Position numbers and translations under genes: made by a program. Below are positions 1 through 13,401 of a stretch of DNA of 13,401 nt, in pieces (position 1 is the stretch's first letter; the number at the start of each line of letters is the position of its first letter). The notes beneath the pieces are model-generated. The model was not told the DNA's origin. It did no database searches and saw only the letters and a program-made list of their open reading frames with translations. The stretch is taken from the IMG/VR virus record IMGVR_UViG_2737471844_000004, positions 1 to 13,401 of that record; one strand, written 5' to 3'. This stretch comes from a virus (taxonomy: Duplodnaviria; Heunggongvirae; Uroviricota; Caudoviricetes).

Positions 1-51
1 ATGTGTTGTAAAATCAGTCGAAGCCTAACAAGTGTGAATGACCTTTTAACC

Positions 52-762
52 ATGACGCAAGTGTTCAATGTTTACTGTGATGAGTCCTGCCATTTAGAAA
101 ATGATGGTCAAAAAGCAATGGTGCTCGGGGCTGTTTGGTGTCCTCTCAATAAGAGGTTTGGTATTGCTAATCGAATACGAGAGATAAAGCTCAAACATGG
201 CTTGGACCCACGTTTTGAAGTCAAATGGACTAAGGTTGGGGCTTCTAAAATTGAGTTTTATAAAGATTTGGTGGATTACTTCTTTGATGATGATGATCTT
301 CATTTCCGGGGATTGGTTATTCCTGACAAAACTCAGCTAAAGCATGATGATTTCGATCAAAGTCATGATGACTGGTACTATAAAATGTATTTTGTCATGT
401 TGAAAACTATTTTTGAGCCAGGAAGTCAATATAGAGTCTTTATTGATATAAAAGATACTCTTGGTCATGAGAAAATACTCAAGTTACATGATGTATTATG
501 TAACAATGCATATGATTTCTCTAGGAAAACAATTTCTAATATTAAGAGAATTAATTCTCATGAAGCTGAGCAATTGCAACTTGCTGATTTATTAATAGGT
601 GCCCTTAGTTATATGCATAGAGGTTTAAATGAAAGTAAGCCAAAACTTTTATTAATTAACAGGATCAGAGAAAGGAGCGGCTATAATCTAACCCAAAATA
701 CTTTGCTTCGAGAGTTAAAGTTTAATCTAATGATCTGGCAATCTAATGGGGGATGTCGATGA
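52..762 (+). CDS. DUF3800-like protein (family call from motif memory); start could instead be ATG at 1
   Basis: ORF 1..762; N-terminal MTQVFNVYCDES and later QLQLADLLIGALSY match the two motifs I recall for DUF3800 (N-terminal DES, C-terminal QxADxL). AT-rich. Stop TGA 760-762 overlaps next start (ATGA). Confidence 0.65.
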   Translation: MTQVFNVYCDESCHLENDGQKAMVLGAVWCPLNKRFGIANRIREIKLKHGLDPRFEVKWTKVGASKIEFYKDLVDYFFDDDDLHFRGLVIPDKTQLKHDDFDQSHDDWYYKMYFVMLKTIFEPGSQYRVFIDIKDTLGHEKILKLHDVLCNNAYDFSRKTISNIKRINSHEAEQLQLADLLIGALSYMHRGLNESKPKLLLINRIRERSGYNLTQNTLLRELKFNLMIWQSNGGCR

Positions 763-1244
763 GTCCGGTTTGGCTACCCGAGCAAATTTTATTAGAACAC
801 TATCAAGGTGAGTGGGAGGCCTACTTTGATAGTGTTTATCAAGCATTCCACCGCGATTTCGTTTTATCTAAACCAGTTTTTCGTGGCGTTCGATTAGGAT
901 TGAAACGTCATCCAGAATATGAAGGTAAATCAGCCACATTCTGGCATATGATTAGCACTGGAAATGTAGAAAGTGAGAGAGTGCCGGATATTCGGCGCTG
1001 CGAAAGAATTAGTTGGCCTAAGCCTGTTATAGATAATAGTACCGATACCTGTTTGAAAGTCTGGGCTGAGCCCAAAGGTAAAAATAGACGTATCCACATT
1101 TGGTTTGAGGATGAGGGATATCTGGTGGTTTTAGATGATAGAGGCGATTTTATGCTTCCATGGACAGCGTTTTATATTGAACATAACCATCAACGAAAGA
1201 AATACAATAAGAGATGGGAAAGACACAATCATAACGGTATTTGA
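759..1244 (+). CDS. Hypothetical protein, translationally coupled partner of the DUF3800-like gene
   Basis: ORF 753..1244; ATG at 759 has GGGGGA 6 nt upstream and overlaps the upstream stop. No recognisable motif. AT-rich like its partner. Confidence 0.6.
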   Translation: MSPVWLPEQILLEHYQGEWEAYFDSVYQAFHRDFVLSKPVFRGVRLGLKRHPEYEGKSATFWHMISTGNVESERVPDIRRCERISWPKPVIDNSTDTCLKVWAEPKGKNRRIHIWFEDEGYLVVLDDRGDFMLPWTAFYIEHNHQRKKYNKRWERHNHNGI

Positions 1245-1548
1245 TAGTAGGCTGGCCGCGCCCTTCCTAGAAGGACGGGGCCGTAACTCCTTCTACACTT
1301 ACGCTAGAAGCTGGTAGATGAGATAGCCTAACTTTAAGTAAACCTGCCTTGCGAGTCAATTAACATTAGAAAGCGATTATGTAAATGTGGATGCTGACTT
1401 GGCGAAAAATCCTTATAAATCAATAGATAGTAGGTTTATTTTCAACTCATAGTTTTTGACTATTAATAGTATGTTATCTATCTAAAAAAAGTTTTCTGTA
1501 TTCATCGCAAAATCAATACTGCTTTAGCATTGTAGTTAGCCATCAGTT

Positions 1549-1575
1549 GCAAAAAGCCTTACCCGTAGGCTTAAC
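1549..1575 (-). terminator. Possible intrinsic terminator downstream of the 59-aa gene
   Basis: On the minus strand AAGCCT-acgggta-AGGCTT followed by TTTGC; the stem is short (6 bp). Confidence 0.3.
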
Positions 1576-1611
1576 GTTTGGCTTGGCTGTAGTCTTACCG
1601 TAACGCTCCGC

Positions 1612-1791
1612 TCACCGTCGTGGCCTGTCCGGTTTCTTCCACTGATACGGCCTCACATCATCCTGCTGGTGGCGTTCCTGTTGCAGCACAACGGAAACAG
1701 GCGCTGAACACCTGTTAATTTTGCTTGCTGGTTGTTTGATTTCGGCAATGCTGCGGATCATCTCCAGCATATCGGCTTCGGTGATGGTCAT
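1612..1791 (-). CDS. Small hypothetical protein (59 aa), below the ORF-track cutoff
   Basis: Hand translation of the minus strand: MTITEADMLEMIRSIAEIKQPASKINRCSAPVSVVLQQERHQQDDVRPYQWKKPDRPRR, stop TGA (plus 1612-1614). SD AAGGTG 6 nt upstream of the ATG (plus 1789-1791). Confidence 0.4.
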   Translation of the reverse strand: MTITEADMLEMIRSIAEIKQPASKINRCSAPVSVVLQQERHQQDDVRPYQWKKPDRPRR

Positions 1792-1823
1792 GATTTACAC
1801 CTTAGGAAATCTTAGGGGGCTGG

Positions 1824-2080
1824 TTGACACTTTCCGGCTTAAGACCTTAACAAACCTTAACATCGCAGGTTGACACACTTGACACTTTTTCGCGAAAAAC
1901 CTTATCAAACCTTAGCATTTCTAAGCATGGCAACTTGACACTTTTCGCGATTTTTTTCGGCTTTTTGACGTGGTAAATCTGGCGCAAGGCCAGTAACGGC
2001 GGGGCTTACAGCGAGGTTGACACTTTTTCGCGTTCAGAGTGTAAAGTGTCAACCCGGCAAGCTGCTCAACTTGACACTTT
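1824..2080. repeat. Array of TTGACAC(TTTTTCGCG) motifs with a second ACCTTA(A/T)CAAACCTTA family; candidate packaging-recognition or protein-binding site
   Basis: TTGACAC at 1824, 1870, 1879, 1935, 2017 and 2071, an inverted copy GTGTCAA at 2046-2052, and a TTGACG variant at 1965. Three copies carry the extension TTTT(T)CGCG. CCTTAACAAACCTTAAC at 1844 and CCTTATCAAACCTTAGC at 1891. Spacing is irregular. Lies directly 3' of the TerS-like gene. Confidence 0.6.
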
Positions 2081-2086
2081 TTGATG

Positions 2087-2614
2087 TCATTGATGGTCTG
2101 ATTTTTCCCATTCAGCTAGGGCGTTTAGCCCGGCTTCACTCCATGATTCCAGTTCATCGGCATAATCACCTGCAACATAGCAGAGTTCGCAACGCAGCAT
2201 ACTAATTGCCAGCCTGGCATTACCTCGCAAATTGTATTGTTCAAAGTAATGCTGCCCGTCGCAATCCTCAAGGCAGATAGCACCATCATCAAGAAATTGC
2301 ACTTCCCAGCCTAATTCCCCGGCTGCATCCAGCACACGCTGCTGTATGCCCTCGTCCGTTGCTGGCGCAGGAATTTTACCGTCTCTGGCCTTAACTGCTT
2401 TCCAGAACTCGCCCCACGTCATTTCCAGCGTTCTCTCTGGCCACATTTCAGAAACTGTGTCTTTTCCCTGTGCTGGTGGGCTGTTCCGCTGCTCTGTCGC
2501 TTCCACATCGATTTTTTTACCGGACATGACCACTTCGCCTTTCTCGATCCAGTCGTAAACTGTCTGGCGGCTTACGCCTTTGTGTTTGGCATATTCTGCC
2601 TTACTCATCAGCAT
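2087..2614 (-). CDS. TerS-like / Nu1-like HTH DNA-binding protein with C-terminal Cys4 cluster; candidate packaging-redirecting (Rpp-like) protein
   Basis: ORF 2087..2614. N-terminus MSKAEYAKHKGVSRQTVYDWIEKG has the HTH pattern of small terminase N-termini. C-terminal C-x3-C-x23-C-x2-C (CLEDC ... CELC). Last gene of the operon, 4 nt after the upstream stop. Confidence 0.55.
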   Translation of the reverse strand: MLMSKAEYAKHKGVSRQTVYDWIEKGEVVMSGKKIDVEATEQRNSPPAQGKDTVSEMWPERTLEMTWGEFWKAVKARDGKIPAPATDEGIQQRVLDAAGELGWEVQFLDDGAICLEDCDGQHYFEQYNLRGNARLAISMLRCELCYVAGDYADELESWSEAGLNALAEWEKSDHQ

Positions 2615-2620
2615 TATGAC

Positions 2621-3292
2621 TCACCCTTCTTTTTCCAGTTGAGCCAGCCGCCCGGATATTTCTTCCAGTTTTTCCAGGGCTGGCTTGCAGGCCGCATCAA
2701 TAACGTCCCGGACCATTCCGGCAAGCTGTTCTTCTGCTGTCGGCGTTGTTACTTCCACGCCCGATGGTTTCCCGCCCTTATCCCAAACACCAAGCGGCAC
2801 GAGCGCAACGTGATCGATAAGAAATGGCGTACCCTCAATAAAAAAATTGTCCTCGCCCATTACATCAGGAACTTCTGCCCCACCTGAGGCACCACAAAAC
2901 ACAACCGACGGACTGGTGGATACCTCCCCTCGGGCTTTCTGGATGTAATCGATGATTTCCTGTCCGTAAATCCGGCATACGCCCCACACCTCGTCACCGC
3001 GAATATACGGCAACATGACGGTGCCAATAATGCGCGACCGTTCGCCCACGTCTTCAAGGGTTTTGCTTTCGGGATGGTCGATAATGACGGGTACTCCGGC
3101 GCAACGTTCCAGGAACTGCGGATTGAGATAAGTTTGCGGTGAACGCCAGACAAATTCTTTTTCTTCGGCGCGGTAGGCCATTCCGGTTCCTGTGATACGC
3201 AGGTTAACCAGCCACATGTTGGAAAACTGATAAGGCGACGGTAGCTGTCCGTCCCGAATCTGCTTCGCCGCCTCAATTTCTGTTAAAAGCAT
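2621..3292 (-). CDS. Hypothetical protein; weak prohead-protease-like pattern plus C-terminal coiled-coil-like tail
   Basis: ORF 2621..3292. VPVIIDHPES ... IIGTV ... GEVSTSPSVVF loosely recalls HK97-type prohead protease His and Ser regions; C-terminus PALEKLEEISGRLAQLEKEG looks scaffold-like. Weak RBS. Confidence 0.55.
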   Translation of the reverse strand: MLLTEIEAAKQIRDGQLPSPYQFSNMWLVNLRITGTGMAYRAEEKEFVWRSPQTYLNPQFLERCAGVPVIIDHPESKTLEDVGERSRIIGTVMLPYIRGDEVWGVCRIYGQEIIDYIQKARGEVSTSPSVVFCGASGGAEVPDVMGEDNFFIEGTPFLIDHVALVPLGVWDKGGKPSGVEVTTPTAEEQLAGMVRDVIDAACKPALEKLEEISGRLAQLEKEG

Positions 3293-3356
3293 AATGTTAT
3301 CCGGTTATAAGCAATAAGCCCCGCCAAATCCGGCAGGGCTGAACTCAGCACGTTTT

Positions 3357-3935
3357 TCATGCCCCCGCGAGGCTTGCAACGTTAATTTTGACCAGGCGAC
3401 GGGGAGGGATTTTGAAGGCGTTCAGCCAGACGTTCGGATCTCCCTGATATTCAGTAATACGACGACCAGCTTCATCCATTCTTACGGTTTTACCCAAATG
3501 GCCCGGCGTGTTTTCCACGGCCCACTGAGCACTTTCCTGAGCAGCCTTGTAAATCTGATCTTCCAGCACCGCCAGCGTTGCAGAATCTGAAACGGAACGA
3601 ATATCCACATCACTGAATTTTTTAGCCAGCTTCTGTGCGCCAATTAATGCACGTTTGCGGTAATCCATCGACTTTTCACCAGCAAACGGGGCCGGAGCGC
3701 GACGGCCCATATTGCTGTATGCGGAATCCGCTTTAGCCTGGGCTTCTGCCAGTGAGGATTCATCTTCGACTGACGCGACGATGTTTTGATTAGCGTTATC
3801 CTCTTTTATGAAATCCTGTGCGGGGATCGCATTCAGAATTTCGATAATCTCCTGCGGAGTGCTTCCCTGCGACTCTGACAGAGCGTTAACCACCTCCATC
3901 AGTTTTAATCGCAAATCTTCTTTGCTTGCTGGCAT
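3357..3935 (-). CDS. Hypothetical protein (192 aa from internal ATG), morphogenesis/packaging module by position
   Basis: ORF 3357..3944 opens at GTG; the ATG at plus 3933-3935 follows GAGAGGTGG at good spacing. No family recognised. Confidence 0.6.
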   Translation of the reverse strand: MPASKEDLRLKLMEVVNALSESQGSTPQEIIEILNAIPAQDFIKEDNANQNIVASVEDESSLAEAQAKADSAYSNMGRRAPAPFAGEKSMDYRKRALIGAQKLAKKFSDVDIRSVSDSATLAVLEDQIYKAAQESAQWAVENTPGHLGKTVRMDEAGRRITEYQGDPNVWLNAFKIPPRRLVKINVASLAGA

Positions 3936-3974
3936 TTTTACCACCTCTCTTTTTTCACCAAAAAATCACGACCA

Positions 3975-4148
3975 TCAGGCCGGACGTTCTACGGGATAAA
4001 GCGCCCGCTGCATTAAACGCCGGGCGACCTCATGAATGCTCGGAGCAATCCCCAGCGGAGAATTGCGGCGTTCCTCGTCCTGGATGCGCTGTAATGCTTC
4101 AATCTGATCACGAGCGAGTAAAACGGGTTTCACGCTGGCTTTTCTCAT
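3975..4148 (-). CDS. Small putative DNA-binding protein (RHH-like pattern), first gene of the module
   Basis: ORF 3975..4172; preferred start MRKASVK at 4148 with AGGAGA 7 nt upstream. Pattern beta-strand KPVLLARDQ followed by two helices. Confidence 0.5.
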   Translation of the reverse strand: MRKASVKPVLLARDQIEALQRIQDEERRNSPLGIAPSIHEVARRLMQRALYPVERPA

Positions 4149-4270
4149 AGTCATATCTCCTGAACAAAACAATGATTATGATTGCACAAACTGAAATGAC
4201 GATCTACATCATTGCAATTTATGAAACAATAACGCATGATGATCGCGTTCTTCCCATTGACTTCAATCAC

Positions 4271-4313
4271 CTGCAAAAATAAAACCCGCAACACTTCTGG
4301 CTGCGGGTTTTTT
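4271..4313. terminator. Bidirectional rho-independent terminator
   Basis: AACCCGCA-(11 nt loop)-TGCGGGTT at 4283-4309, flanked by an A-run (4271-4282) on one side and a T-run (4308-4313) on the other, so it has a U-tract on either strand. Confidence 0.7.
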
Positions 4314-4321
4314 ACTGGCAC

Positions 4322-4345
4322 AAAAAAGCCGGGAAAAATCCCGGC
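4322..4345 (-). terminator. Intrinsic terminator directly after the PerC-like gene
   Basis: GCCGGG-aaaaat-CCCGGC at 4328-4345, preceded on the plus strand by A6 (4322-4327), which gives a U-run on the minus-strand transcript. Sits 6 nt past the stop at 4351. Confidence 0.65.
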
Positions 4346-4350
4346 CTCCG

Positions 4351-4638
4351 TCACTGACTGCAATTTTTCGATCCAGGGTATTTCCTGAATGCCTTACCAT
4401 TGGGCTGATGTAATCCCATCCCGGCATGTGCCCGGCTGATGGTTTCGCGCATCTCCCCGAAATTATCCTGCCGTGCTGGTGGGCGTGCTGCCTTGCGGAT
4501 ACATTCCGCGCGACGTTTTGCCGCCTGTTCCCGTGCCTTGTCATCATTCGCCAGCATGATGACCTCAGCCCACCGCGCCGCCGCTCTCCGGTACAGACCA
4601 CGCGCTTCCAGTGCTTCCGCTTTGCTGTCGTGAATCAT
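4351..4638 (-). CDS. PerC-family-like transcriptional regulator
   Basis: ORF 4351..4638. N-terminus MIHDSKAEALEARGLYRRAAARWAEV and KRRAECIRKA match the PerC/Pch signature as I recall it. Start ATG overlaps the FinO-like stop (ATGA). Confidence 0.6.
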   Translation of the reverse strand: MIHDSKAEALEARGLYRRAAARWAEVIMLANDDKAREQAAKRRAECIRKAARPPARQDNFGEMRETISRAHAGMGLHQPNGKAFRKYPGSKNCSQ

Positions 4639-5231
4639 GCGCCTGTTTTCTCCTTTGCTGCCCGGCGCTGACGTTTGCGCTTCTCATTCAGCGCCACCAG
4701 CCGCGTTTCTGCGTCCTGTTGTTCCTGTGGTGTCACCTCGCCGCACGGCTGGCCTTTCAGGTCGTAGCGTACCCCACCAGCCATTAAGGCGCGGTAATAG
4801 CGCGGACACTGCGCATAAGATGCCAGCGTCGCACGTAATGCCCCTGGCCCGAATGCCAGCCCCCTGACGGCGAGATCCTGCATCAGGTCGTCGAATATCC
4901 CCACCTTAAGCGGCTTCGGTGCTTCCCGGCTGAATAATTCAGGCCACAACTCAGTGAGGCGGTTAATGCGCCTGCGGTTTTTTCGCTGCCGTTTGGTCAT
5001 ATGCCGCCACGGTGTCGCCCCTGTGGGCTTCTGCTGCGCTTTCTGGTTACCGGGCATCACTTTATGCGCCGATGTGGTTTTATCCTGCTGCTGCTGCTGC
5101 TGCTGCTGCTGCGCCGCCTGCGTCGTTTTCTGCGGCGTGCCGTAAATGCCTTTCGGTTTTCTGTTAATAGTCAGCTTAGTCATGCTTTGCCCCATCGTTT
5201 TTACTGATTGTTTCATATCCGGTACTTTCAT
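4635..5231 (-). CDS. FinO/ProQ-domain RNA-binding protein with N-terminal poly-Q tract; start codon uncertain
   Basis: ORF 4635..5231. LWPELFSREAPKPLKVGIFDDLMQDL ... YDLKGQPCGEVTPQEQQDAETRL parallels the ProQ N-terminal/FinO domain. Q9 run encoded by the repeat at 5086-5112. No clear SD at the first ATG; internal ATGs are possible starts. Confidence 0.7.
   Translation of the reverse strand: MKVPDMKQSVKTMGQSMTKLTINRKPKGIYGTPQKTTQAAQQQQQQQQQDKTTSAHKVMPGNQKAQQKPTGATPWRHMTKRQRKNRRRINRLTELWPELFSREAPKPLKVGIFDDLMQDLAVRGLAFGPGALRATLASYAQCPRYYRALMAGGVRYDLKGQPCGEVTPQEQQDAETRLVALNEKRKRQRRAAKEKTGA
5086..5112. repeat. Perfect (CTG)9 / (CAG)9 trinucleotide repeat, in frame within the FinO-like CDS
   Basis: Plus strand reads CTG nine times from 5086 to 5112. 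Confidence 0.95.
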
Positions 5232-5236
5232 CTTCT

Positions 5237-5522
5237 GGGTAGAGGGGTAGACGGCGGGTAGATAACAAAAAATAGTCCTCTACCCACTTAACTTAATGAA
5301 AAAAAACAACTTTCACACATTAGGTAGAGGGGTAGACCGTAAAATAGAAAAGTTTGAAACTTACTTTCTTACAATCTGTGTTTTCCTCTCGCTGTATAAA
5401 AAGTTTTTTGAGCGGGGATGTTGTCTACCCCTCTACCCACTTCTCTGAAAGCCTTGTGCTACGAGGGATTCAGCGGGTAGACAATAAAAAATCACCATCT
5501 ACCCTGTGTCTACCCATCTACC
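5237..5522. repeat. Iteron cluster flanking AT-rich spacers; candidate replication origin
   Basis: About 12 copies of GGTAGA(N)/TCTACC in both orientations (5237-5264, 5277-5287, 5321-5338, 5423-5440, 5473-5483, 5497-5522), including the inverted pair AGGTAGAGGGGTAGAC / GTCTACCCCTCTACCC around an AT-rich core. Immediately 3' of the primase-helicase gene. Confidence 0.65.
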
Positions 5523-5539
5523 TGTTACGGGTATTACTC

Positions 5540-7288
5540 TTATAAAAATTCCTCGGTTCTCTCCGTTTGTATAACGTTGGTTTGTATTCGTCCTTTAAAA
5601 CCTCTTGTCAGGTATTCAGCCCCATATTCTCTTGCTGCTGACTTCATGGCCTTACCAAAATCACCGACACTTAATATTTCTTCTTCCCCCATATACTCCA
5701 TAAAGGCGAGATATAGTCTGTACAGGCTTGTACGCGGATTAAGATCAGTTAATCTCTTACCGCCTCCCATCATCATCCCATGCGGTTCATCAAGAAATGC
5801 AAGCGCCGCACATAACCCAATGACAGGATCAGTTTCCTGTTTTATTTTCAGAGCTTCGGCACCGTCGCGCTGCTCCAACAATAATTCCCGTGCTTTTTCT
5901 GGATCGGAAAAGTTAGCCAGTAATCGACGAATAATGACAGGTATTTCCGCCGCTATCTTTTGCGGTAACTCTTTATCCTTTTCGGTCTCCCTTACAATAT
6001 TATCGAACCGAAAAATTACACGTCGACGCGCAACGCCTCCGGCCCGTTCGGTGAATGTCATCGGCACGTTATTTGTTGCCAGCACGACGGACCTGATAAT
6101 TGTTGTGAAACGCTTTTCATATTTCGGGTTAATTTCAACTGGATCTCCACCCGTTATTTTTTTGATGCCGGATCCTTCACCTGTATATTTCGGCTGGTCT
6201 GCCAGGACAATAAGACGACTTCCGACAACCTGCGCACGCCCGCCAGCATCATCAAGCGATGTCATTTCAGCGCTTACCGTGTTCTGTTTCCCTGCCAGAA
6301 GGGTGGCTATGTGCGTGATTGTGCTCTTGCCGCTCCCGCCTTCCCCTGTGGCCTCAATAAACATCTGCCAGTCGTACCGGTTCGCCATAATCATGTACAG
6401 CGCGGCGCATATACGCATCATCTTTCGCGGGTCTTTTCCTGCGGCGTGATCAAGCCATTTATGAAAGTTTGGCGCGTTGTCGCGGATGTTCTCCCCTGGT
6501 ACTGGTGGCGTGTACTCAATGCCGTTATGCGTGGTGATCCAGTTATCCGGCGAGTGCGGGGAAAATTCGCCAGTTTTCATGTCAAGCACGCCATTAGAGA
6601 ACGGCAATAAATCACCTGACGGTTCCCCCATTGGCCTGGCCATAACTTTTAAAGCATCCACAGCATTACTTATTGCTCTCCGACTAAACGATGTTCCGTT
6701 TTCTTCGTAAATAGCCACCATTTCACGACTAAGATCCAGTGTGCTTACCGGAACCCAAAAATCATCGCGCCAGACGTGGACAACCTCACTCTCCTGATTC
6801 ATTGCTACATCCTGAAATCGTTCAGCTAAAAGTTTTGCCCTTTGGCTGTCCGCCATTCTGGAAAGAGATATTTTGTGTTTTTTCTCGGTCCTTCCTGACA
6901 GAATTTCTCCGCGCTCAGCCTGTTCGCGGATCCGTTGCAGGTAGTCGCGCCAGTTCTCCGGTTCCTGGTCGGTGATGCCTTTGTATAATTTCGCCTCCTG
7001 TACGCCAGCCAGCGCCAGCTTTTCAGCGATAGTATTGATCTGGATTGGCTCTATCTCCCCCGCGATATAGACACGCGCAAAACGGCGTTTCTCGTCAATA
7101 ATGCGGATATTCGCCAGGTCTGCCAGTTGCTTTGGCCCCAGGTAAACAGGAGGCACGTTATCGCCGTGTTTTCGTCCTTCACTTTCAATCCAGTGTTGAG
7201 CATGGGCGTAAGCATCCGTCCCGGCAAAAATGATTACCTCAGTGAATTTATCCTTCGGCTGATATTTTAGACTCGGTGCGTTTTTCAC
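5540..7288 (-). CDS. Primase / SF3 (D5-like) helicase replication initiator, P4 alpha-like
   Basis: ORF 5540..7288, 582 aa. Walker A GEGGSGKST, Walker B-like LIVLAD, motif C VLATNN. GTG start overlaps upstream stop (GTGA) with GGGAGG 6 nt upstream. Confidence 0.85.
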   Translation of the reverse strand: MKNAPSLKYQPKDKFTEVIIFAGTDAYAHAQHWIESEGRKHGDNVPPVYLGPKQLADLANIRIIDEKRRFARVYIAGEIEPIQINTIAEKLALAGVQEAKLYKGITDQEPENWRDYLQRIREQAERGEILSGRTEKKHKISLSRMADSQRAKLLAERFQDVAMNQESEVVHVWRDDFWVPVSTLDLSREMVAIYEENGTSFSRRAISNAVDALKVMARPMGEPSGDLLPFSNGVLDMKTGEFSPHSPDNWITTHNGIEYTPPVPGENIRDNAPNFHKWLDHAAGKDPRKMMRICAALYMIMANRYDWQMFIEATGEGGSGKSTITHIATLLAGKQNTVSAEMTSLDDAGGRAQVVGSRLIVLADQPKYTGEGSGIKKITGGDPVEINPKYEKRFTTIIRSVVLATNNVPMTFTERAGGVARRRVIFRFDNIVRETEKDKELPQKIAAEIPVIIRRLLANFSDPEKARELLLEQRDGAEALKIKQETDPVIGLCAALAFLDEPHGMMMGGGKRLTDLNPRTSLYRLYLAFMEYMGEEEILSVGDFGKAMKSAAREYGAEYLTRGFKGRIQTNVIQTERTEEFL

Positions 7289-7575
7289 TTCTTACCTCCC
7301 GCAACCAACATTGCCCGGATTTTTTTTATATTCGTGGCTGCACGTCTCGCCACTGCCTGTTGTTTGTTTTCCACCAGAATAAAATCACGATCAAACTGAC
7401 GGCGCGGCATTACGCAGTCATATTCGTAAGCCTCACGGCGGTAGGTGATATTGCCTGGCGTAACGTGACGAATAACCACCCGTCCCCCGCGTCTGGTGTC
7501 CCGGAAAATATCACCGGGGCGGATTTCAGGCCGAGAGAGGCCGCTGGCAGTAAAGCCAGAATTTTTCTTTTTCAT
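7285..7575 (-). CDS. Hypothetical basic protein (96 aa)
   Basis: ORF 7285..7575; ATG 4 nt after the upstream stop; coupled to the primase gene. Confidence 0.6.
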   Translation of the reverse strand: MKKKNSGFTASGLSRPEIRPGDIFRDTRRGGRVVIRHVTPGNITYRREAYEYDCVMPRRQFDRDFILVENKQQAVARRAATNIKKIRAMLVAGGKK

Positions 7576-7579
7576 GGTT

Positions 7580-7780
7580 TTATTTTCCTGTCAGCAGTTC
7601 CGGTTTTATTTCCGCACGAATACAAAGTTCAGAAAAAAATTCAGGAGAACCAACAATCTCATTACTTTTCAGTCGGCATTGTGATTTCACTTTCCCTTTA
7701 TCCAGGTAAACCAGTACGCGTCCGGTGAAATCATCTGGCACATTAAGCACTACGGGTACATGCACTTCATGATTATGCAT
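7580..7780 (-). CDS. Small hypothetical protein (66 aa), FTGR-motif family
   Basis: ORF 7580..7780; GGAGGATG SD; start ATGCATAA overlaps upstream stop. Shares DDFTGRVLVYLDKGKV ... PEF motif with both halves of the 7999..8364 protein. Confidence 0.6.
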   Translation of the reverse strand: MHNHEVHVPVVLNVPDDFTGRVLVYLDKGKVKSQCRLKSNEIVGSPEFFSELCIRAEIKPELLTGK

Positions 7781-8006
7781 GGCTTACATCCTCCGTGAAT
7801 TTTCTTCTGTAACGCGCCTCTGCCACATATTCCGCATAGTCCGACGCAATACTAAGAATCATTTCACCCTCTGACTTGTAGCCACTGGTATTGATAAGAA
7901 AATATGCAGCTTTCATCATGTCAGCAACGCTCAACAATGCGCCCGATGTATCTTCCGGTGCGCCATCAAATTCCCGTTTCAGGGAATTAAAACGATCATC
8001 ACGCAT
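7773..8006 (-). CDS. Small hypothetical protein (77 aa)
   Basis: ORF 7773..8006; G-rich SD; start ATGCGTGA overlaps upstream stop by 8 nt. Confidence 0.6.
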   Translation of the reverse strand: MRDDRFNSLKREFDGAPEDTSGALLSVADMMKAAYFLINTSGYKSEGEMILSIASDYAEYVAEARYRRKFTEDVSHA

Positions 8007-8364
8007 GTTTACCCCCCTGAATGACCTGATAACCGCAACTGGTCAGCAACTCGATAAATTCCGGCAGTGTGCCGAAACAGCAATCATCACGCAGCCGTTC
8101 GCAGGATACCTCGACGCCGTTTTCGTAGTGACTCACCATACGTCCGGTAAAATGCAGATCATCATCGTGATGGCTCGTTGACGGCTTAATCAGTCGCGCA
8201 CGTTCCGCCAGTTCCAGCAATGCTTCAACGCTTCCGGCAATTGCACCATCCGGCAGGTGGTAATTACGCACTATGCGCCCGTTCTCCACATGGACCAGTA
8301 GCTGCCCGGTAAATTTCTCGTCAAACTGAATGCTGTTAAGGTCAGAAATTGACAGGTTATGCAT
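7999..8364 (-). CDS. Hypothetical protein with internal tandem duplication of an FTG(Q/R)-x-LV-x-x-E-N-G motif domain
   Basis: ORF 7999..8382; preferred start MHNLSIS at 8364 with AGGAGG upstream, overlapping the upstream stop (ATGCATAA). FTGQLLVHVENGRIV and FTGRMVSHYENGVEV repeat within the protein. Confidence 0.6.
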   Translation of the reverse strand: MHNLSISDLNSIQFDEKFTGQLLVHVENGRIVRNYHLPDGAIAGSVEALLELAERARLIKPSTSHHDDDLHFTGRMVSHYENGVEVSCERLRDDCCFGTLPEFIELLTSCGYQVIQGGKHA

Positions 8365-8581
8365 GGTGCACCTCCTGCACATCAGCCATGATAATTTTTC
8401 CGGCCTTATCCAGTGCCTGATCGGCTTTTAGCTGCACAAATGCTAAATAATGGGAGATGCATTCTGATTCTCTGGCTGCGTGTTTATGCGCCACACCAGC
8501 GATAGCAGAAATCTCAATAAGTGAATCCATCAGCGTTTTGATAGCGTCTACCGCTGCATCAGGCCATGTTGCATTACACAT
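8357..8581 (-). CDS. Small hypothetical protein (74 aa)
   Basis: ORF 8357..8581; AGGAGGTGG SD; start ATGTGTAA overlaps upstream stop by 8 nt. Confidence 0.6.
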   Translation of the reverse strand: MCNATWPDAAVDAIKTLMDSLIEISAIAGVAHKHAARESECISHYLAFVQLKADQALDKAGKIIMADVQEVHHA

Positions 8582-8939
8582 GTTCCACCTCCTGGCGAAT
8601 ACGGGCGGCGAATACCATCACGCAGCCATCAGGAGATTGCTGACGTGCTTCCTGTTCGCTGGTGGCCTCGATGTGAATTACGCGCGGTTGTGCCGTGCTC
8701 AGGGCGATAAAACGCCAGATAAAATTGTTCTCGCATTTCTGAATAAACAGCGTGTTTTCTTCGCGCCCTTTCCATGTTGCCGAGATATAGCCCATGTCAT
8801 TGAGCATCTCGCAGGCATCAACCAGCGTATCAGCAGCTACGTGTACAGTGTTTTTACCGTCAGCTATGCAATCACGGTGCACCGCCAGGAAGGTGTATAT
8901 AAATTTAGGGTGAGTTTGGGTATGCTGTGTTCCAGCCAT
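8574..8939 (-). CDS. Hypothetical protein (121 aa), first gene of the leftward operon
   Basis: Internal ATG (plus 8937-8939) of the long minus-strand open frame, with GAGGT 7 nt upstream and a promoter/operator region immediately 5'. Natural-looking sequence MAGTQHTQTHPKFIYTF... Confidence 0.6.
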   Translation of the reverse strand: MAGTQHTQTHPKFIYTFLAVHRDCIADGKNTVHVAADTLVDACEMLNDMGYISATWKGREENTLFIQKCENNFIWRFIALSTAQPRVIHIEATSEQEARQQSPDGCVMVFAARIRQEVEHV

Positions 8940-9028
8940 AATCGTTACCTCATTTAACGGTTTGGTTAGACGCCCCGCTACTGCCGCAAACAGTTCGGGG
9001 CGTTGTCGTTTACATCCTCTTACTGAGG

Positions 9029-9104
9029 TGTGATTTAAATTAAATTTAACTGAATCACAGGTCAAGTATTTTTTGTGATTCTTTTTTGTGTATACTGAAT
9101 CACA
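9029..9104. promoter_or_regulatory. Divergent promoter region with two TGTGATT-N17-AATCACA operator-like palindromes
   Basis: Palindromes at 9029-9059 and 9074-9104. Plus-strand -10-like TATACT at 9091-9096 lies inside the second; minus-strand -35 TTGACC (9060-9065) and -10 TAATTT (9037-9042) overlap the first. Confidence 0.55.
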
Positions 9105-9126
9105 TCTTTTGTTTAGGAGAATGCAC

Positions 9127-9432
9127 ATGGCAAAAAACACTATCAACGACAAATCAAAACAGATTTCAATTCGTATCCCACATGATGCTTTTGAAGGCAT
9201 GGAATCCGTAAAACTGGACGGTGAAAGCAACGCCGGATTCATAGTAACCGCCATGCGCGGTGAGATCGCCCGCCGCCAGGCAGAAGGAAGCGGAGAAAAT
9301 CCCCTGGTTTCTTCGCTCGATGCGCTGGCGCAGGTGGAAAAAATCGGAGTCAAAGCTGCCGAGGAGATCGGGCAGCTCGTCACCGTCGCACGTGAAGAAC
9401 TCCAGCGCCGCAAGGCCAAAGAATCAGAATAA
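9127..9432 (+). CDS. Small putative DNA-binding regulator (RHH-like); candidate island repressor
   Basis: ORF 9088..9432; ATG at 9127 with AGGAGA 6 nt upstream. Pattern ISIRIP (beta), HDAFEGMESVKL, NAGFIVTAMRGEIARR (helices). The only plus-strand gene in the backbone. Confidence 0.65.
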   Translation: MAKNTINDKSKQISIRIPHDAFEGMESVKLDGESNAGFIVTAMRGEIARRQAEGSGENPLVSSLDALAQVEKIGVKAAEEIGQLVTVAREELQRRKAKESE

Positions 9433-9667
9433 TAACTATCATCGCCGTGGTGTGAGGAACTCCGGCGCATTGCTTTACAGGTACACAGAATGACCAACAA
9501 AGAATCAACCAATACACCATCACCGGCACGGAAAAGACGGCGCAGAAAGATAGAGCACGAATCAGAAAGATTCGCGCCATGTGCTTTTGCCCTTGAGCAA
9601 TTCCTTAAAGAGTACAGGCGCACAAAAATGGGATCGCATACCTGGAAAACATCGCGGCATGGCAATG

Positions 9668-10106
9668 TTAAAGAGCATGAATAGCCCACCAGCAAGCCAG
9701 CACACTGATCACATTGCCCACCAGCCGCAAATCTGGCATTGTTGGCAATGTGTTCAAGTGTGTAGCTTTCCCACTGGTGGCCCTCTGCAGTCGCCTTTGT
9801 TTTATCCAGAACGAAATCAGACATCAGATTGATCAGCACCTGGTGACCTGACAAAATCGCATCAGTCACGCCACCAGCAAAATTTTTTGCTTTCCGGACA
9901 GCGTGGCCAACGGCATTTTGCAGCGAAATATTCTGCATTTCTGGCGTGCTGTAGTAACGGTGATCAGTGCCTTCACTCTGTGCGACCACAACGCTATAAT
10001 CTGCCTCGTAGACAGTAAGCAATATGGCGCAGTAGGCTATTCGTTCACAAAGGCGCTCCGGCAACGGGGCGCTTTCTCTTTTTGTAACGGTCAGAGCGTT
10101 ACACAT
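9668..10106 (-). CDS. Hypothetical ORF with well-defined 5' end but unresolved 3' end; possibly frameshifted
   Basis: ATG at 10106 overlaps the AntA-like stop by 8 nt (ATGTGTAA) and starts MCNA like the gene at 8581. First ~130 aa look protein-like, then Cys/Ser-rich junk; no in-frame stop until 8574. An alternate frame ends at plus 9668. Confidence 0.3.
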
Positions 10107-10977: not shown

Positions 10978-11196
10978 TCAGGCTGATGTGTTTCGGCGTT
11001 CTTCCAGCCAGCGATTAACCTCTACCGCATCGAATGCAGTGCTTTTCTCACCCAGTTTGATGGGCTTAGGCATCTTCCCGCTACGCACCCAACGATCGAG
11101 CGTTGATAAGCTGGTACCCAGCAATTCAGCCAGGCGATAGCGGCGGATATAGCCAGTTGCAGGGATTGCGGTTTGAAGTATTGGTTGGTTTTTCAT
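10978..11196 (-). CDS. alpA: AlpA-family DNA-binding regulator (excisionase-like)
   Basis: ORF 10978..11289; probable start MKNQPIL at 11196. RRYRLAELLGTSLSTLDRWVRSGKMPKPIKLG ... VEVNRWLEERR is the typical AlpA signature. Confidence 0.8.
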   Translation of the reverse strand: MKNQPILQTAIPATGYIRRYRLAELLGTSLSTLDRWVRSGKMPKPIKLGEKSTAFDAVEVNRWLEERRNTSA

Positions 11197-11308
11197 ATGC
11201 CCCATTACCTTTGTTGTTGGTTTGTGATTCGTAATAGGGGCATTAAATAACAAATGAAATGATGTGTGTGTGAGTTTTAGAAAAAACACTGTGACTTTTC
11301 TTATTTCA

Positions 11309-12147: not shown

Positions 12148-13401
12148 TTATTTATTAGATTGCGTGATGTCAGAACATATCATGTTTTCTAAATTCACCA
12201 GCAAATCAGTCCACTGTGCCAGCGCCGCTTTGCGCTCATCAAAATATTGATGGCGGTTATAAATGCCCTCTACGCCTTTTATGCGGTGGTTAAGGCATCG
12301 TTCAGCAACGATCGGGTCAACTCCCAATGCTGCTAAATGTGTTCGTGCTGTTCGCCGGAAGTCGTGAATTGTAAAGTTGGGGACGTTCGGCATTTCTGCT
12401 CTGACTTTTGCCAATGCAACAGGAAGGGTGCTTTCCTGGATGTGAGGGATCATTCTGTGCTGCATTTTTCTGGCAGGTAATACCCATGCGCTATTGCATG
12501 AAAATGTGTGCAATTCTCGCAACCATTCTATGGTCGCTGGTGGTAATGGTATGTCGATAGCATCGCCATTTTTAGTTCGTTGTTCTGGTAGATGCCAAAT
12601 CGCGCCATCTAAGTCGAATTCATCCCACCTGGCGGCGCATAACTCCATTTTTCTGACACACAATGCTAAGAGCAACTTAAAGGTTAATTCGTTCTGGCGG
12701 CTGAATCCTTTGGCTTTACGCATGGCCTGAAAAAATTGGATTAATTCGTCACGGTTCAGCCAGCGATCACGAGATAATTCTTTCCCACCAGCATCTGATA
12801 CTTCAAAAGCTGAGCAGGGGTTAACCTCCAAAGCAAGGCGTTTAATACCGTAGTCAAATATTCGACGTGTCCACCGAAGAACGTCAGTAGCAATTGTTGG
12901 AGCGCCTCTATCAACAATGCTTTTAAGCATGGCATCAATATGGCGTGGTTTTACATCTTCAACCTTCATGTGGCCTATGGCAGGATTTATGTCTTTATCA
13001 ATGCGCCTGCGGAGAATATCTGGGTGTTTCCATCGGGGAAGTATTTGCCGTGCAAAGTATTCGGCGGCAAGTTCAGAAACATGCAGCGCGTTTTTTTCAG
13101 CTTCTATTTTTGCCAGTGCTTCGGCTTTACGCTGCTGTTTTTCTGCGGCTACGTCATATCCCAAAGCAACTCGTGCGGAAAGTTCTTTTGCCAGTTCCCT
13201 GGCTTTTGATAACGATAATTCAGAATATGAACCAATAAGCATGGCACGAGATTTTCCTGCCAGTTTATATCGAAACCGCCATGTCGGGGATCTATCCACC
13301 TCTCTATACCGGAGATATAGCCCACCACCATCAGCACGACCTTCGAAATGTTCTCCGGCTTTTATCCATGCGCGGATCTGCATATCTGTGAGTTTTGGCA
13401 T
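12148..13401 (-). CDS. int: P4-type tyrosine integrase (site-specific recombinase)
   Basis: ORF 12148..13401, 417 aa. N-terminus MPKLTDMQIRAWIKAGEH...DGGGLYLRY and C-terminal HDFRRTARTHLAALG...ERCLNH...IYNRHQY carry the R...HxxR...Y catalytic signature. ATG sits exactly at the window edge. Confidence 0.95.
   Translation of the reverse strand: MPKLTDMQIRAWIKAGEHFEGRADGGGLYLRYREVDRSPTWRFRYKLAGKSRAMLIGSYSELSLSKARELAKELSARVALGYDVAAEKQQRKAEALAKIEAEKNALHVSELAAEYFARQILPRWKHPDILRRRIDKDINPAIGHMKVEDVKPRHIDAMLKSIVDRGAPTIATDVLRWTRRIFDYGIKRLALEVNPCSAFEVSDAGGKELSRDRWLNRDELIQFFQAMRKAKGFSRQNELTFKLLLALCVRKMELCAARWDEFDLDGAIWHLPEQRTKNGDAIDIPLPPATIEWLRELHTFSCNSAWVLPARKMQHRMIPHIQESTLPVALAKVRAEMPNVPNFTIHDFRRTARTHLAALGVDPIVAERCLNHRIKGVEGIYNRHQYFDERKAALAQWTDLLVNLENMICSDITQSNK

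What the first reader, a model, noticed from the sequence alone, without database searches (positions are those of the whole stretch)
2621..3935. Two mid-sized proteins upstream of the TerS-like gene may be capsid-morphogenesis factors
The 223-aa protein has a weak prohead-protease-like pattern (VPVIIDH, IIGTV, GEVSTSPS) and a coiled-coil-like C-terminus; the 192-aa protein is unassigned. Their position mirrors the capsid-remodelling genes that precede terS in SaPIs, but there is no capsid gene here. The protease resemblance is weak and from memory.
Basis: inference. Interest (0 to 1): 0.4.

Follow-up and report, generated by a model that had tools for sequence, protein, structure and literature searches.

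The report
Satellite island carries split phage protease–scaffold
An E. coli phage-satellite island with no capsid gene carries, as two separate genes in reversed order, the two halves of its likely helper phage's single head-maturation protease/scaffold gene, which points to an undescribed way for a satellite to interfere with its helper's capsid assembly.

The parts
2621..3292 (-). 223-aa detached prohead-protease homologue: DUF2213 domain (about residues 1-175) plus one long C-terminal helix (186-222). It is homologous to residues 1-226 of the phage 430-440-aa head gene.
3357..3935 (-). 192-aa scaffold-fragment homologue: island-specific N-terminal helical hairpin (about 8-39), a low-confidence linker (47-57), and a C-terminal domain (about 58-186) homologous to the last ~130 residues of the phage 430-440-aa head gene.
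   Evidence: 64% identity to Rac-SA53 residues 295-423, 2e-56. 64% to the co-resident A17 prophage protein, residues 305-433. phrog_6216 columns 409-544. 30% identity (2e-16) to the C-terminus of a separate 314-aa gene that follows the protease gene in phage contig L006. AF2 pLDDT 79. No fold match in PDB or BFVD. dN/dS 0.15-0.25.
3317..3340 (-). GC-rich stem-loop (10 bp, 7 G-C) in the 64-nt spacer between the two genes. It may be a partial terminator/attenuator that lowers protease expression relative to scaffold fragment.
   Evidence: Found by the terminator scan. RNAfold -17 to -23 kcal/mol in five E. coli islands. A hairpin at the same position with a different sequence occurs in Pantoea (-21 kcal/mol), and in Klebsiella it is a canonical terminator with a T7 run. 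The function is inferred.
3975..4148 (-). 57-aa gene that always precedes the pair. No family match. Identical or nearly so among E. coli islands, and present at the same length in the Pantoea and Klebsiella islands.
   Evidence: RefSeq annotation. Synteny. dN about 0.24 to Pantoea/Klebsiella with dS saturated. No Pfam/PHROG/NCBIfam hit. GGAGA ribosome-binding site.
4175..4202 (-). Sigma-70-like promoter match (TCGTCA-16-CATAAT) immediately upstream of the 57-aa gene.
   Evidence: This is a consensus match only, and the number of such matches in the region is not above the shuffle expectation.
4271..4346 (-). Two tandem intrinsic-terminator-like hairpins with T-runs just after the perC stop codon. 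They separate the 57/192/223/175 operon from upstream transcription.
   Evidence: Read directly from the sequence. The second hairpin (4311..4281, 12 bp) was also found by the scan.
2087..2614 (-). 175-aa protein with an N-terminal HTH. Its ribosome-binding site overlaps the end of the protease gene, so it is probably translationally coupled. It occupies the slot that bona fide TerS genes hold in sister islands.
   Evidence: phrog_57 TerS 1.4e-7, residues 1-42 only, plus HTH_17. No PDB sequence match, including Rpp. No phage tblastn hit. No similarity to the Rac-SA53 or A17 TerS. RBS AGAAGGGTGA.

Best explanation
The window is a phage-inducible chromosomal island (PICI-type satellite: integrase, AlpA-like, D5-type primase, PerC, ProQ/FinO, no structural genes). 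Its late operon (57-aa gene, 192-aa gene, hairpin, 223-aa gene, 175-aa HTH gene) carries a rebuilt copy of one helper-phage head gene. In Rac-SA53-like phages that gene encodes a single polypeptide: an assemblin-fold maturation protease, a helix, a ~70-residue Glu/Ala/Lys-rich linker, and a C-terminal domain. It sits in the protease/scaffold slot between portal and capsid genes, much like P2 gpO.

Shown: the island keeps both functional ends as separate, selected genes, lacks the linker, and places the C-domain gene first.

Inferred mechanism: the 192-aa protein uses the helper-type C-terminal domain to occupy the scaffold-binding sites on the helper's capsid protein. Because it has a short, different N-terminal part, it competes with the full-length helper scaffold and changes shell curvature, as CpmB and Rcm do in staphylococci. 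This would favour small capsids that fit the ~14-kb island but not the 52-kb phage. Shells built on the short scaffold would contain little helper protease, since the helper delivers its protease only as a fusion to its own scaffold. The island would therefore supply a free protease (223 aa, catalytic residues intact), possibly docked through its C-terminal helix. The hairpin and the weak ribosome-binding site ahead of the protease gene would keep the protease sub-stoichiometric.
For: Island identity.

Two halves of one phage gene.

The phage gene sits between portal/head-morphogenesis and the major head protein.

Protease fold and conserved H73, S125/127, D160/H161. The His-Ser-Asp order of the gp21-type triad is taken from PMC5694885.

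The fused canonical form is widespread: 2,333 representative proteins at E<=0.001, and the best 150 are all 340-1,015 aa. When the two parts are separate genes in a phage, the order is protease then scaffold.

Pfam's namesake for the family, Pa193 gp24, is a putative scaffold with a segment bound inside the capsid at the five-fold vertices (PMC11456595).

The split, reversed order with the 57-aa gene and the intergenic hairpin is conserved in Pantoea and Klebsiella islands at 56-61% protein identity.

Purifying selection, and every copy intact.

Most island copies of each half form a clade (87% bootstrap) that is sister to the same Rac-SA53-like phage clade.

Co-occurrence: at least 11 of 30 listed island genomes are among the 60 listed genomes with the Rac-SA53 head module, against 0.33 expected, P about 5e-15. 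These include strain A17, whose island segment is 99.8-100% identical to this window and which has an apparently complete morphogenesis module.

Precedent for scaffold mimicry by satellites: CpmB (PMC6893505) and Rcm (PMC12409344).

T4 proheads hold about 55 protease copies against about 580 scaffold copies (PMC9958956), which fits an attenuator placed before the protease gene.
Against: No experiment links these genes to capsid size, interference or transfer.

The C-terminal domain has no solved or predicted structural relative. That it binds capsid protein is inferred only from its position in the phage gene and from analogy.

Island and helper copies are only 54-64% identical. This could mean adaptation to an unsampled helper, or a function that has drifted away from the helper's.

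The one well-studied E. coli PICI, EcCICFT073, uses phage-sized capsids and is reported to lack capsid-morphogenesis genes, so small capsids are not a general rule for enterobacterial PICIs.

The proposed docking of the protease helix onto the 192-aa N-terminus has no support; the similarity between these segments is not significant (hhalign P about 0.1).

Promoter and terminator matches are not more frequent than in shuffled sequence.

The co-occurrence statistic is not corrected for clonal relatedness and uses truncated hit lists.
Confidence: 0.5

Rival explanations
1. Interference only. The two proteins act as poisons of helper morphogenesis rather than builders of island-sized capsids. The free, untethered protease would cleave helper scaffold or capsid protein prematurely. 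The C-domain fragment would cap scaffold-binding sites as a dominant-negative, lowering phage yield in a defence-like way, while the island is packaged into whatever normal capsids remain.
For: The homology evidence is the same as for the main explanation. The island carries other anti-phage cargo, the candidate system PDC-M04. EcCICFT073 shows that E. coli PICIs can interfere without changing capsid size. Truncated assembly proteins are classic dominant-negatives (general knowledge).
Against: A pure poison would also destroy the capsids the island needs. Conservation of an intact catalytic set and of both genes together, directly upstream of a TerS-type gene, looks more like a constructive packaging module. 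Neither protein matches any PADLOC defence model.
Confidence: 0.2
2. Helper-independence or compatibility module. The island supplies its own maturation protease and scaffold end so that it can use capsid proteins from a wider range of helpers, or from helpers whose own protease-scaffold gene it represses. Capsid size would not change.
For: Capsid-forming PICIs show that satellites can carry their own head-assembly genes (bioRxiv 10.1101/2022.09.08.507074). Island copies are diverged from any sampled phage copy, at most 55% and 64% identity. One island variant also carries helper-like baseplate-region genes.
Against: The helper already encodes the full gene, so plain duplication of function gives no obvious benefit. 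Loss of the linker and the split are unexplained under this view. No capsid or portal gene accompanies the pair.
Confidence: 0.12
3. Decaying relics of a prophage head module, or hitch-hiking fragments without current function.
For: Fragmented copies of the fused gene do occur in cryptic prophages. For example, Shigella boydii has a 216-aa N-terminal piece and a 238-aa C-terminal piece from the fused-type lineage.
Against: dN/dS is 0.04-0.25 and every copy examined is intact. The same reversed order is kept across E. coli, Pantoea and Klebsiella islands with dS saturated. Ribosome-binding sites and operon structure are retained. Catalytic residues are invariant.
Confidence: 0.03
4. The database names are right: a NUDIX hydrolase (192 aa) and a TolA-like envelope protein (223 aa), unrelated to capsids.
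For: RefSeq and UniRef names on many cluster members.
Against: Neither protein has a NUDIX or TolA domain in Pfam. The names come from phage homologues that carry an extra N-terminal NUDIX domain or the EAK-rich linker.
Confidence: 0.01

Closest known systems
SaPI1 CpmB (with CpmA) and SaPIpT1028 Rcm, satellite internal scaffolds that compete with the helper scaffold
   Same: They are satellite-encoded, small and helical, and sit in the late operon next to terS. They share the helper scaffold's capsid-binding C-terminal element, so the helper cannot easily escape (PMC6893505, PMC12409344). The 192-aa protein likewise retains the helper-type C-terminal domain behind a different, shorter N-terminal part.
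   Different: No sequence relationship to CpmB or Rcm was found. The shared element here is a ~130-residue domain at 64% identity rather than a short motif. The host is Gram-negative and the helper's scaffold is fused to its protease. The partner gene is a protease homologue, not CpmA. Capsid-size redirection is not demonstrated here.
Rac-SA53-type phage 430-440-aa DUF2213 protein (phrog_6216) and, more distantly, Pa193 gp24 and P2 gpO protease-scaffold fusions
   Same: Direct homology: 54% over the protease half and 64% over the C-terminal domain. Same fold class and same conserved His/Ser/Asp-His residues. P2 gpO is the textbook case of a protease and scaffold in one chain, and it is used by the satellite P4.
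   Different: The island has two genes instead of one, in reverse order. The ~70-residue charged linker is missing and the C-domain gene has a new N-terminus. The genes are not flanked by portal and capsid genes. P4 encodes no gpO homologue and uses the external scaffold Sid instead.
Capsid-forming PICIs (cf-PICIs)
   Same: PICI-type satellites of Enterobacterales that carry head-assembly genes of phage origin.
   Different: cf-PICIs encode the complete set needed to build their own small capsids (bioRxiv 10.1101/2022.09.08.507074). This island has no capsid, portal or connector gene, so it must act on helper-made capsid protein.
EcCICFT073-type E. coli PICIs (Rpp)
   Same: Same overall island plan (int, alpA, primase, late operon) and the same host species.
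   Different: EcCICFT073 is a cos-type island that redirects the helper TerS with Rpp. It is packaged in phage-sized capsids and is reported to lack capsid-morphogenesis genes (PMC6739421, PMC6092414). The 175-aa protein here has no sequence match to any PDB chain, Rpp included.
SaPIbov5 Ccm / PmCI172 capsid-protein homologue
   Same: A satellite copy of a helper head protein used to redirect assembly.
   Different: Those are homologues of the major capsid protein itself. Here the copied gene is the protease-scaffold.

Membership tests
Pfam PF09979 (DUF2213 / Pa193_gp24) | Whole-protein score above the curated gathering threshold | tested here: met
   223-aa protein: 28.1 bits against a cut-off of 22, residues 39-168. 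25 of 26 aligned homologues match.
Prohead maturation protease of the assemblin fold (T4 gp21 / herpesvirus protease / HK97 gp4 class) | Assemblin-type beta-barrel fold | tested here: met
Prohead maturation protease of the assemblin fold | Conserved catalytic His, Ser and a third Asp/His, in that order along the chain | tested here: inconclusive
   H73, S125 and S127 are invariant and D160/H161 are at least 90% conserved in 26 homologues, in the His-Ser-Asp order reported for gp21-type enzymes (PMC5694885). I could not obtain the residue-level superposition or the model coordinates, so equivalence to the known triad and the spatial arrangement are not verified.
Prohead maturation protease of the assemblin fold | Proteolytic processing of scaffold and capsid proteins inside the prohead | not testable with these tools
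   Needs biochemistry or mass spectrometry of particles.
Prohead maturation protease of the assemblin fold | Gene located in the head module between portal and major capsid genes | tested here: not met
   True for the phage homologues. The island copy has no portal or capsid neighbour. This is the feature that makes the island copy unusual. It does not argue against homology.
Phage internal scaffolding protein (for the 192-aa protein) | Homology to, or derivation from, the scaffold portion of a head-module gene | tested here: met
   64% identity to the C-terminal ~130 residues of the phage gene. The same domain ends a separate 314-aa gene that follows the protease gene in phage contig L006.
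Phage internal scaffolding protein | Binds the major capsid protein and is removed on maturation | not testable with these tools
   No multimer prediction was available. The only experimental hint is the Pa193 gp24 fragment seen on the capsid interior (PMC11456595), and no sequence link from that fragment to this C-domain was detectable.
SaPI CpmA/CpmB capsid-morphogenesis proteins | Sequence homology to CpmA or CpmB | tested here: not met
   No Pfam, PHROG, NCBIfam or PDB-sequence hit other than DUF2213 and phrog_6216. CpmB has a solved structure (PDB 2L8T/6B23 according to PMC6893505) and was not matched. The similarity is functional analogy only.
PICI-type phage satellite | Integrase, AlpA-type regulator and primase/replicase in one direction, followed by a packaging operon; about 10-15 kb; no virion structural genes | tested here: met
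   ORF map and domain hits. In strain A17 the related island lies between yicC and dinD and spans about 14 kb. No match to the helper's structural genes.
PICI-type phage satellite | Induction, replication and packaging by a helper phage | not testable with these tools
   Only indirect evidence: strong co-occurrence with Rac-SA53-type prophages.
Capsid-forming PICI | Own major capsid, portal and head-tail connector genes | tested here: not met
   None in the window.
Rpp (redirecting phage packaging) of EcCICFT073-type PICIs, for the 175-aa neighbour | Sequence similarity to crystallised Rpp proteins | tested here: not met
   phmmer against all PDB chains: best E=0.38, to a xylanase. The structural work on Rpp is reported in PMC6739421.

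The most novel reading that the evidence does not exclude
A capsid-less satellite has taken its helper's single-chain protease-scaffold and rebuilt it as a two-component system: a short scaffold made in excess from the first gene, and a free maturation protease made at low level behind an attenuator. This system would assemble helper capsid protein into island-sized shells and also mature them. It would be the first satellite-encoded prohead protease acting on a helper's capsid, and a capsid-size switch made by shortening and uncoupling the helper's own scaffold.
Probability: 0.35. Interest if true: 0.75.

Novelty: new variant of a known kind. Interest (0 to 1): 0.6.

Why it matters
Satellites are known to remodel helper capsids with unrelated external cages (Sid, TcaP), capsid-protein copies (Ccm) or small scaffold mimics (CpmB, Rcm). 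All well-characterised scaffold mimics are staphylococcal. For enterobacterial PICIs the only worked-out hijacking mechanism is terminase redirection by Rpp.

This module would add a Gram-negative case whose evolutionary origin can be read directly: both pieces come from one identifiable helper gene. It includes a protease, which no capsid-less satellite is known to carry.

It also offers a natural experiment on how scaffold length and protease tethering set capsid size and maturation in phages with protease-scaffold fusions. Candidate helper-satellite pairs already co-reside in sequenced strains such as A17.

On the practical side, the 'NUDIX hydrolase' and 'TolA' names on hundreds of database entries for these proteins are wrong.

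Tried and rejected
1. Sequence searches of the 223-aa protein, the phage 430-aa protein and three family profiles against all PDB chains gave nothing relevant. The first profile was swamped by NUDIX hits from NUDIX-fused members, and the NUDIX-free profile hit only low-complexity coiled coils. The protease link therefore rests on fold comparison and Pfam/PHROG membership.

3. I suspected that the N-terminus of the 192-aa protein derives from the helix after the protease domain, which would support a tandem-duplication-and-deletion origin and a docking model. hhalign picks that register, but P is about 0.1 over 12-14 columns, so this is not supported.

4. The 175-aa neighbour was tested as Rpp, as the helper's TerS, and against all phage records. 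It matched none. Only its N-terminal HTH resembles TerS or excisionase families.

5. Promoter and terminator scans are no richer than shuffled sequence. I rely on positional conservation of the intergenic hairpin instead.

6. PADLOC does not list either protein as a known defence component.

7. Nine literature searches (DUF2213; PICI with protease, scaffold or size redirection; satellite with prohead protease; Pa193 gp24; gp21 catalytic triad) found no description of this module. Subscription-only papers are not covered.

Full report
**Setting.** All the relevant genes lie on the minus strand. From right to left the window encodes:
- a tyrosine integrase (13401..12148), a 260-aa protein and an AlpA-like HTH protein (11289..10978);
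- several small genes and a D5-type primase (7288..5540);
- a ProQ/FinO-family protein (5231..4635) and a PerC-family regulator (4638..4351);
- a 57-aa gene (4148..3975), the 192-aa gene (3935..3357), the 223-aa gene (3292..2621) and a 175-aa HTH protein (2614..2087).

A low-GC two-gene cassette follows on the plus strand. In E. coli strain A17 a mosaic relative of this island lies between yicC and dinD and spans about 14 kb. Its 2.7-kb late region is 99.8% identical to the window. This is the layout of a PICI-type phage satellite.

**Observation check.** Both ORFs, their lengths and the quoted motifs are real. The 192-aa start at ATG 3935 has a strong ribosome-binding site, and the mechanical ORF from GTG 3944 is 3 codons longer. 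The 223-aa protein ends in a single long predicted helix, residues 186-222.

**The 223-aa protein.**
- It passes Pfam's curated threshold for DUF2213 (28.1 bits against 22). It weakly matches a PHROG annotated as head maturation protease.
- An AlphaFold model built on 26 homologues is confident (pLDDT 85, pTM 0.74).
- Across the 26 homologues, H73, S125-T126-S127-P128 and E153 are invariant and D160/H161 nearly so. This is the His, Ser, Asp/His order of gp21-type and herpesvirus enzymes (PMC5694885).
- I could not superpose residues, so the catalytic assignment is an inference from conservation.

**The 192-aa protein.** It has no Pfam or NCBIfam match and no structural relative, but it is not an orphan. 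Both target proteins hit one PHROG, phrog_6216, at different column ranges. A DNA search of phage genomes found a single 430-aa gene in Escherichia phage Rac-SA53 that covers both.
- The 223-aa protein aligns to residues 1-226 of that protein (54% identity, 6e-85).
- Residues 61-189 of the 195-aa ORF (58-186 in the 192-aa numbering) align to residues 295-423 (64% identity, 2e-56).
- Between those parts the phage protein has a ~70-residue Glu/Ala/Lys-rich linker that the island lacks.
- In Rac-SA53 the gene order is TerS, TerL, portal, head-morphogenesis protein, this gene, a 205-aa gene, then the major head protein. That is the usual slot for the protease/scaffold.
- Pfam's current namesake for the family, Pseudomonas phage Pa193 gp24, is a 478-aa putative scaffolding protein. 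A helix-turn-helix of it is seen bound to the capsid interior at the five-fold vertices (PMC11456595).

**How unusual the arrangement is.**
- An exhaustive profile search of 1.84 billion representative proteins found 2,333 relatives at E<=0.001. The best 150 are all 340-1,015 aa. Many match the whole profile, protease through to C-domain, in one stretch, often behind a further N-terminal extension of 120-180 aa. Ranking by score favours fused proteins, so this shows that fused forms are numerous. It does not show that split forms are rare.
- In a phage contig where the protease (here NUDIX-fused) and the C-domain protein are separate genes, the protease gene comes first, and the C-domain ends the next gene of 314 aa.
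- In the island the C-domain gene comes first.
- The same order (57-aa gene, ~190-199-aa gene, ~221-224-aa gene, then a packaging gene) is found in islands of Pantoea agglomerans and Klebsiella aerogenes. Their proteins are only 56-61% identical to these, and bona fide TerS genes (Sf6-type) follow directly.

**Function versus decay.**
- Within E. coli variants (dS about 0.1-0.16), dN/dS is 0.04-0.16 for the protease gene and 0.15-0.25 for the C-domain gene. Every copy examined is intact.
- In neighbour-joining trees, 9 of 10 island protease domains and 11 of 13 island C-domains form clades with 87% bootstrap. Each clade is sister to the same Rac-SA53-like fused phage clade. This fits one old capture of a fused gene rather than repeated recent pick-ups or two unrelated acquisitions.

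**Operon anatomy.**
- Two strong terminator-like hairpins follow perC. Then comes a sigma-70-like match, and then the 57-aa gene with a GGAGA ribosome-binding site.
- The 64-nt spacer between the two target genes holds a 10-bp GC-rich hairpin.
- A hairpin occupies the same spacer in Pantoea with a different sequence. In Klebsiella it is a canonical terminator with a run of seven T.
- The protease gene has a weak ribosome-binding site, and the 175-aa gene's site overlaps the protease stop codon.
- Scan counts are not above the shuffle expectation, so only the positional conservation carries weight.

**Link to a helper.**
- The island pair occurs at >=90% nucleotide identity in 34 of 5,426 complete E. 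coli genomes. The Rac-SA53-type head module occurs in 88.
- At least 11 of the 30 listed island genomes are among the 60 listed head-module genomes, against 0.33 expected (hypergeometric P about 5e-15). This is not corrected for clonality, and it is a lower bound because the lists are truncated.
- Strain A17 carries both. Its prophage region has lysis genes, TerS, TerL, portal, head-morphogenesis protein, a 440-aa DUF2213 gene, a 205-aa gene, the capsid gene, and tail and baseplate genes.
- The island proteins are 53.5% and 64.3% identical to that prophage protein. tblastx finds nothing else in the window that matches the prophage morphogenesis region.
- In Pantoea the island module lies directly next to such a head module.

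**Mechanism.** What is shown: a capsid-less satellite keeps, under selection, a protease-fold homologue and a C-terminal-domain homologue of one head gene from the phage type it co-occurs with. They are separated, linker-less and in reversed order, with a conserved hairpin between them.

What is inferred:
- The 192-aa protein competes with the helper's full-length scaffold for capsid-protein binding and alters shell geometry. This is how CpmB and Rcm work; they share the helper scaffold's capsid-binding end (PMC6893505, PMC12409344).
- The helper delivers its protease only as a fusion to its own scaffold, so shells built on the island's scaffold would lack protease. The island would therefore provide a free one.
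- The attenuator and weak ribosome-binding site would keep it sub-stoichiometric. T4 proheads carry roughly 55 protease copies to 580 scaffold copies (PMC9958956).
- The island is about 14 kb and Rac-SA53 is 52.3 kb, so a smaller shell would exclude the phage genome.

I put about 0.5 on this constructive model, about 0.2 on a purely inhibitory role, about 0.12 on a compatibility role without size change, and very little on decay or on the database names.

**Comparison with known systems.**
- It works most like CpmB/Rcm, but there is no homology to them. The shared element is a whole domain, and the partner is a protease.
- It is homologous to phage protease-scaffold fusions (the Rac-SA53 type; more distantly Pa193 gp24; conceptually P2 gpO), but it differs in architecture and context.
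- It is not a capsid-forming PICI, since it has no capsid or portal gene.
- It is not of the EcCICFT073/Rpp type. That island is reported to lack capsid-morphogenesis genes and to use phage-sized capsids, and the 175-aa neighbour does not match Rpp or any other solved protein.
- None of the searches I ran of open-access papers and bioRxiv returned a description of a prohead protease in a capsid-less satellite or of this split gene.

**Verdict.** The thing itself is a new variant of a known kind (satellite capsid-assembly hijacking) with a clear, testable mechanism and natural helper-satellite pairs available. Interest 0.6.

Noticed in passing
window 1-762 (+) and 753-1244 (+): A DUF3800 protein plus a 163-aa protein match both components of the PADLOC candidate defence system PDC-M04 (8e-98 and 9e-74). 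The region has only 36-38% GC, so it is probably accessory anti-phage cargo at the island's end.
   Followed up: partly
window 2621-3935; many RefSeq/UniRef entries: Database names for these proteins ('NUDIX hydrolase' for the 192-194-aa protein, 'TolA' for the 223-aa protein) are carried over from phage homologues with an extra NUDIX domain or an EAK-rich linker. Neither island protein contains such a domain.
   Followed up: yes
L010 (E. coli 08-00022) 121-1424, minus strand: In this island variant the gene after the protease is not the 175-aa HTH protein. Instead there are an 88-aa gene and a 345-aa gene (phrog_196, baseplate hub), 78% and 73% identical to baseplate-region genes of the A17 prophage. 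Either this satellite variant carries helper tail-gene homologues, or it marks an island/prophage junction.
   Followed up: partly
L003 (Pantoea agglomerans) 8350-16628: The island module (199 aa, 221 aa, Sf6-type TerS, 275-aa TerS-like) is followed within 550 bp by portal, a 276-aa gene, a 438-aa DUF2213 gene, a 208-aa gene and the capsid gene of a Rac-SA53-like prophage. No TerL lies between them. This could be a satellite and helper remnant in tandem, or a recombinant.
   Followed up: partly
L007 (metagenome contig) 838-9038: A small element with a Toprim primase, an AAA_25 helicase and a serine recombinase carries a fused 345-aa DUF2213-plus-C-domain gene but no recognisable capsid gene. 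It may be another kind of satellite that uses the same helper gene without splitting it.
   Followed up: no
window 4635-5231 (-) and 4351-4638 (-): A ProQ/FinO-family RNA-chaperone homologue with a run of nine glutamines, and a PerC-family activator, sit just upstream of the late operon. perC is followed by two tandem terminators. The Klebsiella sister island has a Q-like antiterminator gene in this region, which hints at antitermination control.
   Followed up: no
window 3975-4148 (-): A 57-aa gene always precedes the pair. It is identical or nearly so among E. coli islands and has no family match. By eye it resembles a ribbon-helix-helix regulator. That reading was not tested.
   Followed up: partly
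L012 (E. coli A17) 12735-14171: RefSeq names the prophage's 478-aa portal-position protein 'anti-CBASS protein Acb1 family protein'. The orthologous Rac-SA53 protein is a clear portal (phrog_146, 7e-74).
   Followed up: no
window 8574-10106 (-): This 510-aa ORF looks spurious. It is low in complexity and overlaps shorter ORFs. In the related A17 island the corresponding region is annotated as several small genes.
   Followed up: no
window 5540-7288 (-) compared with L002 14373-15785: The replication module is mosaic. The window has a D5-type primase, whereas the A17 island, whose late region is 99.8% identical, has a RepA-family helicase instead.
   Followed up: no
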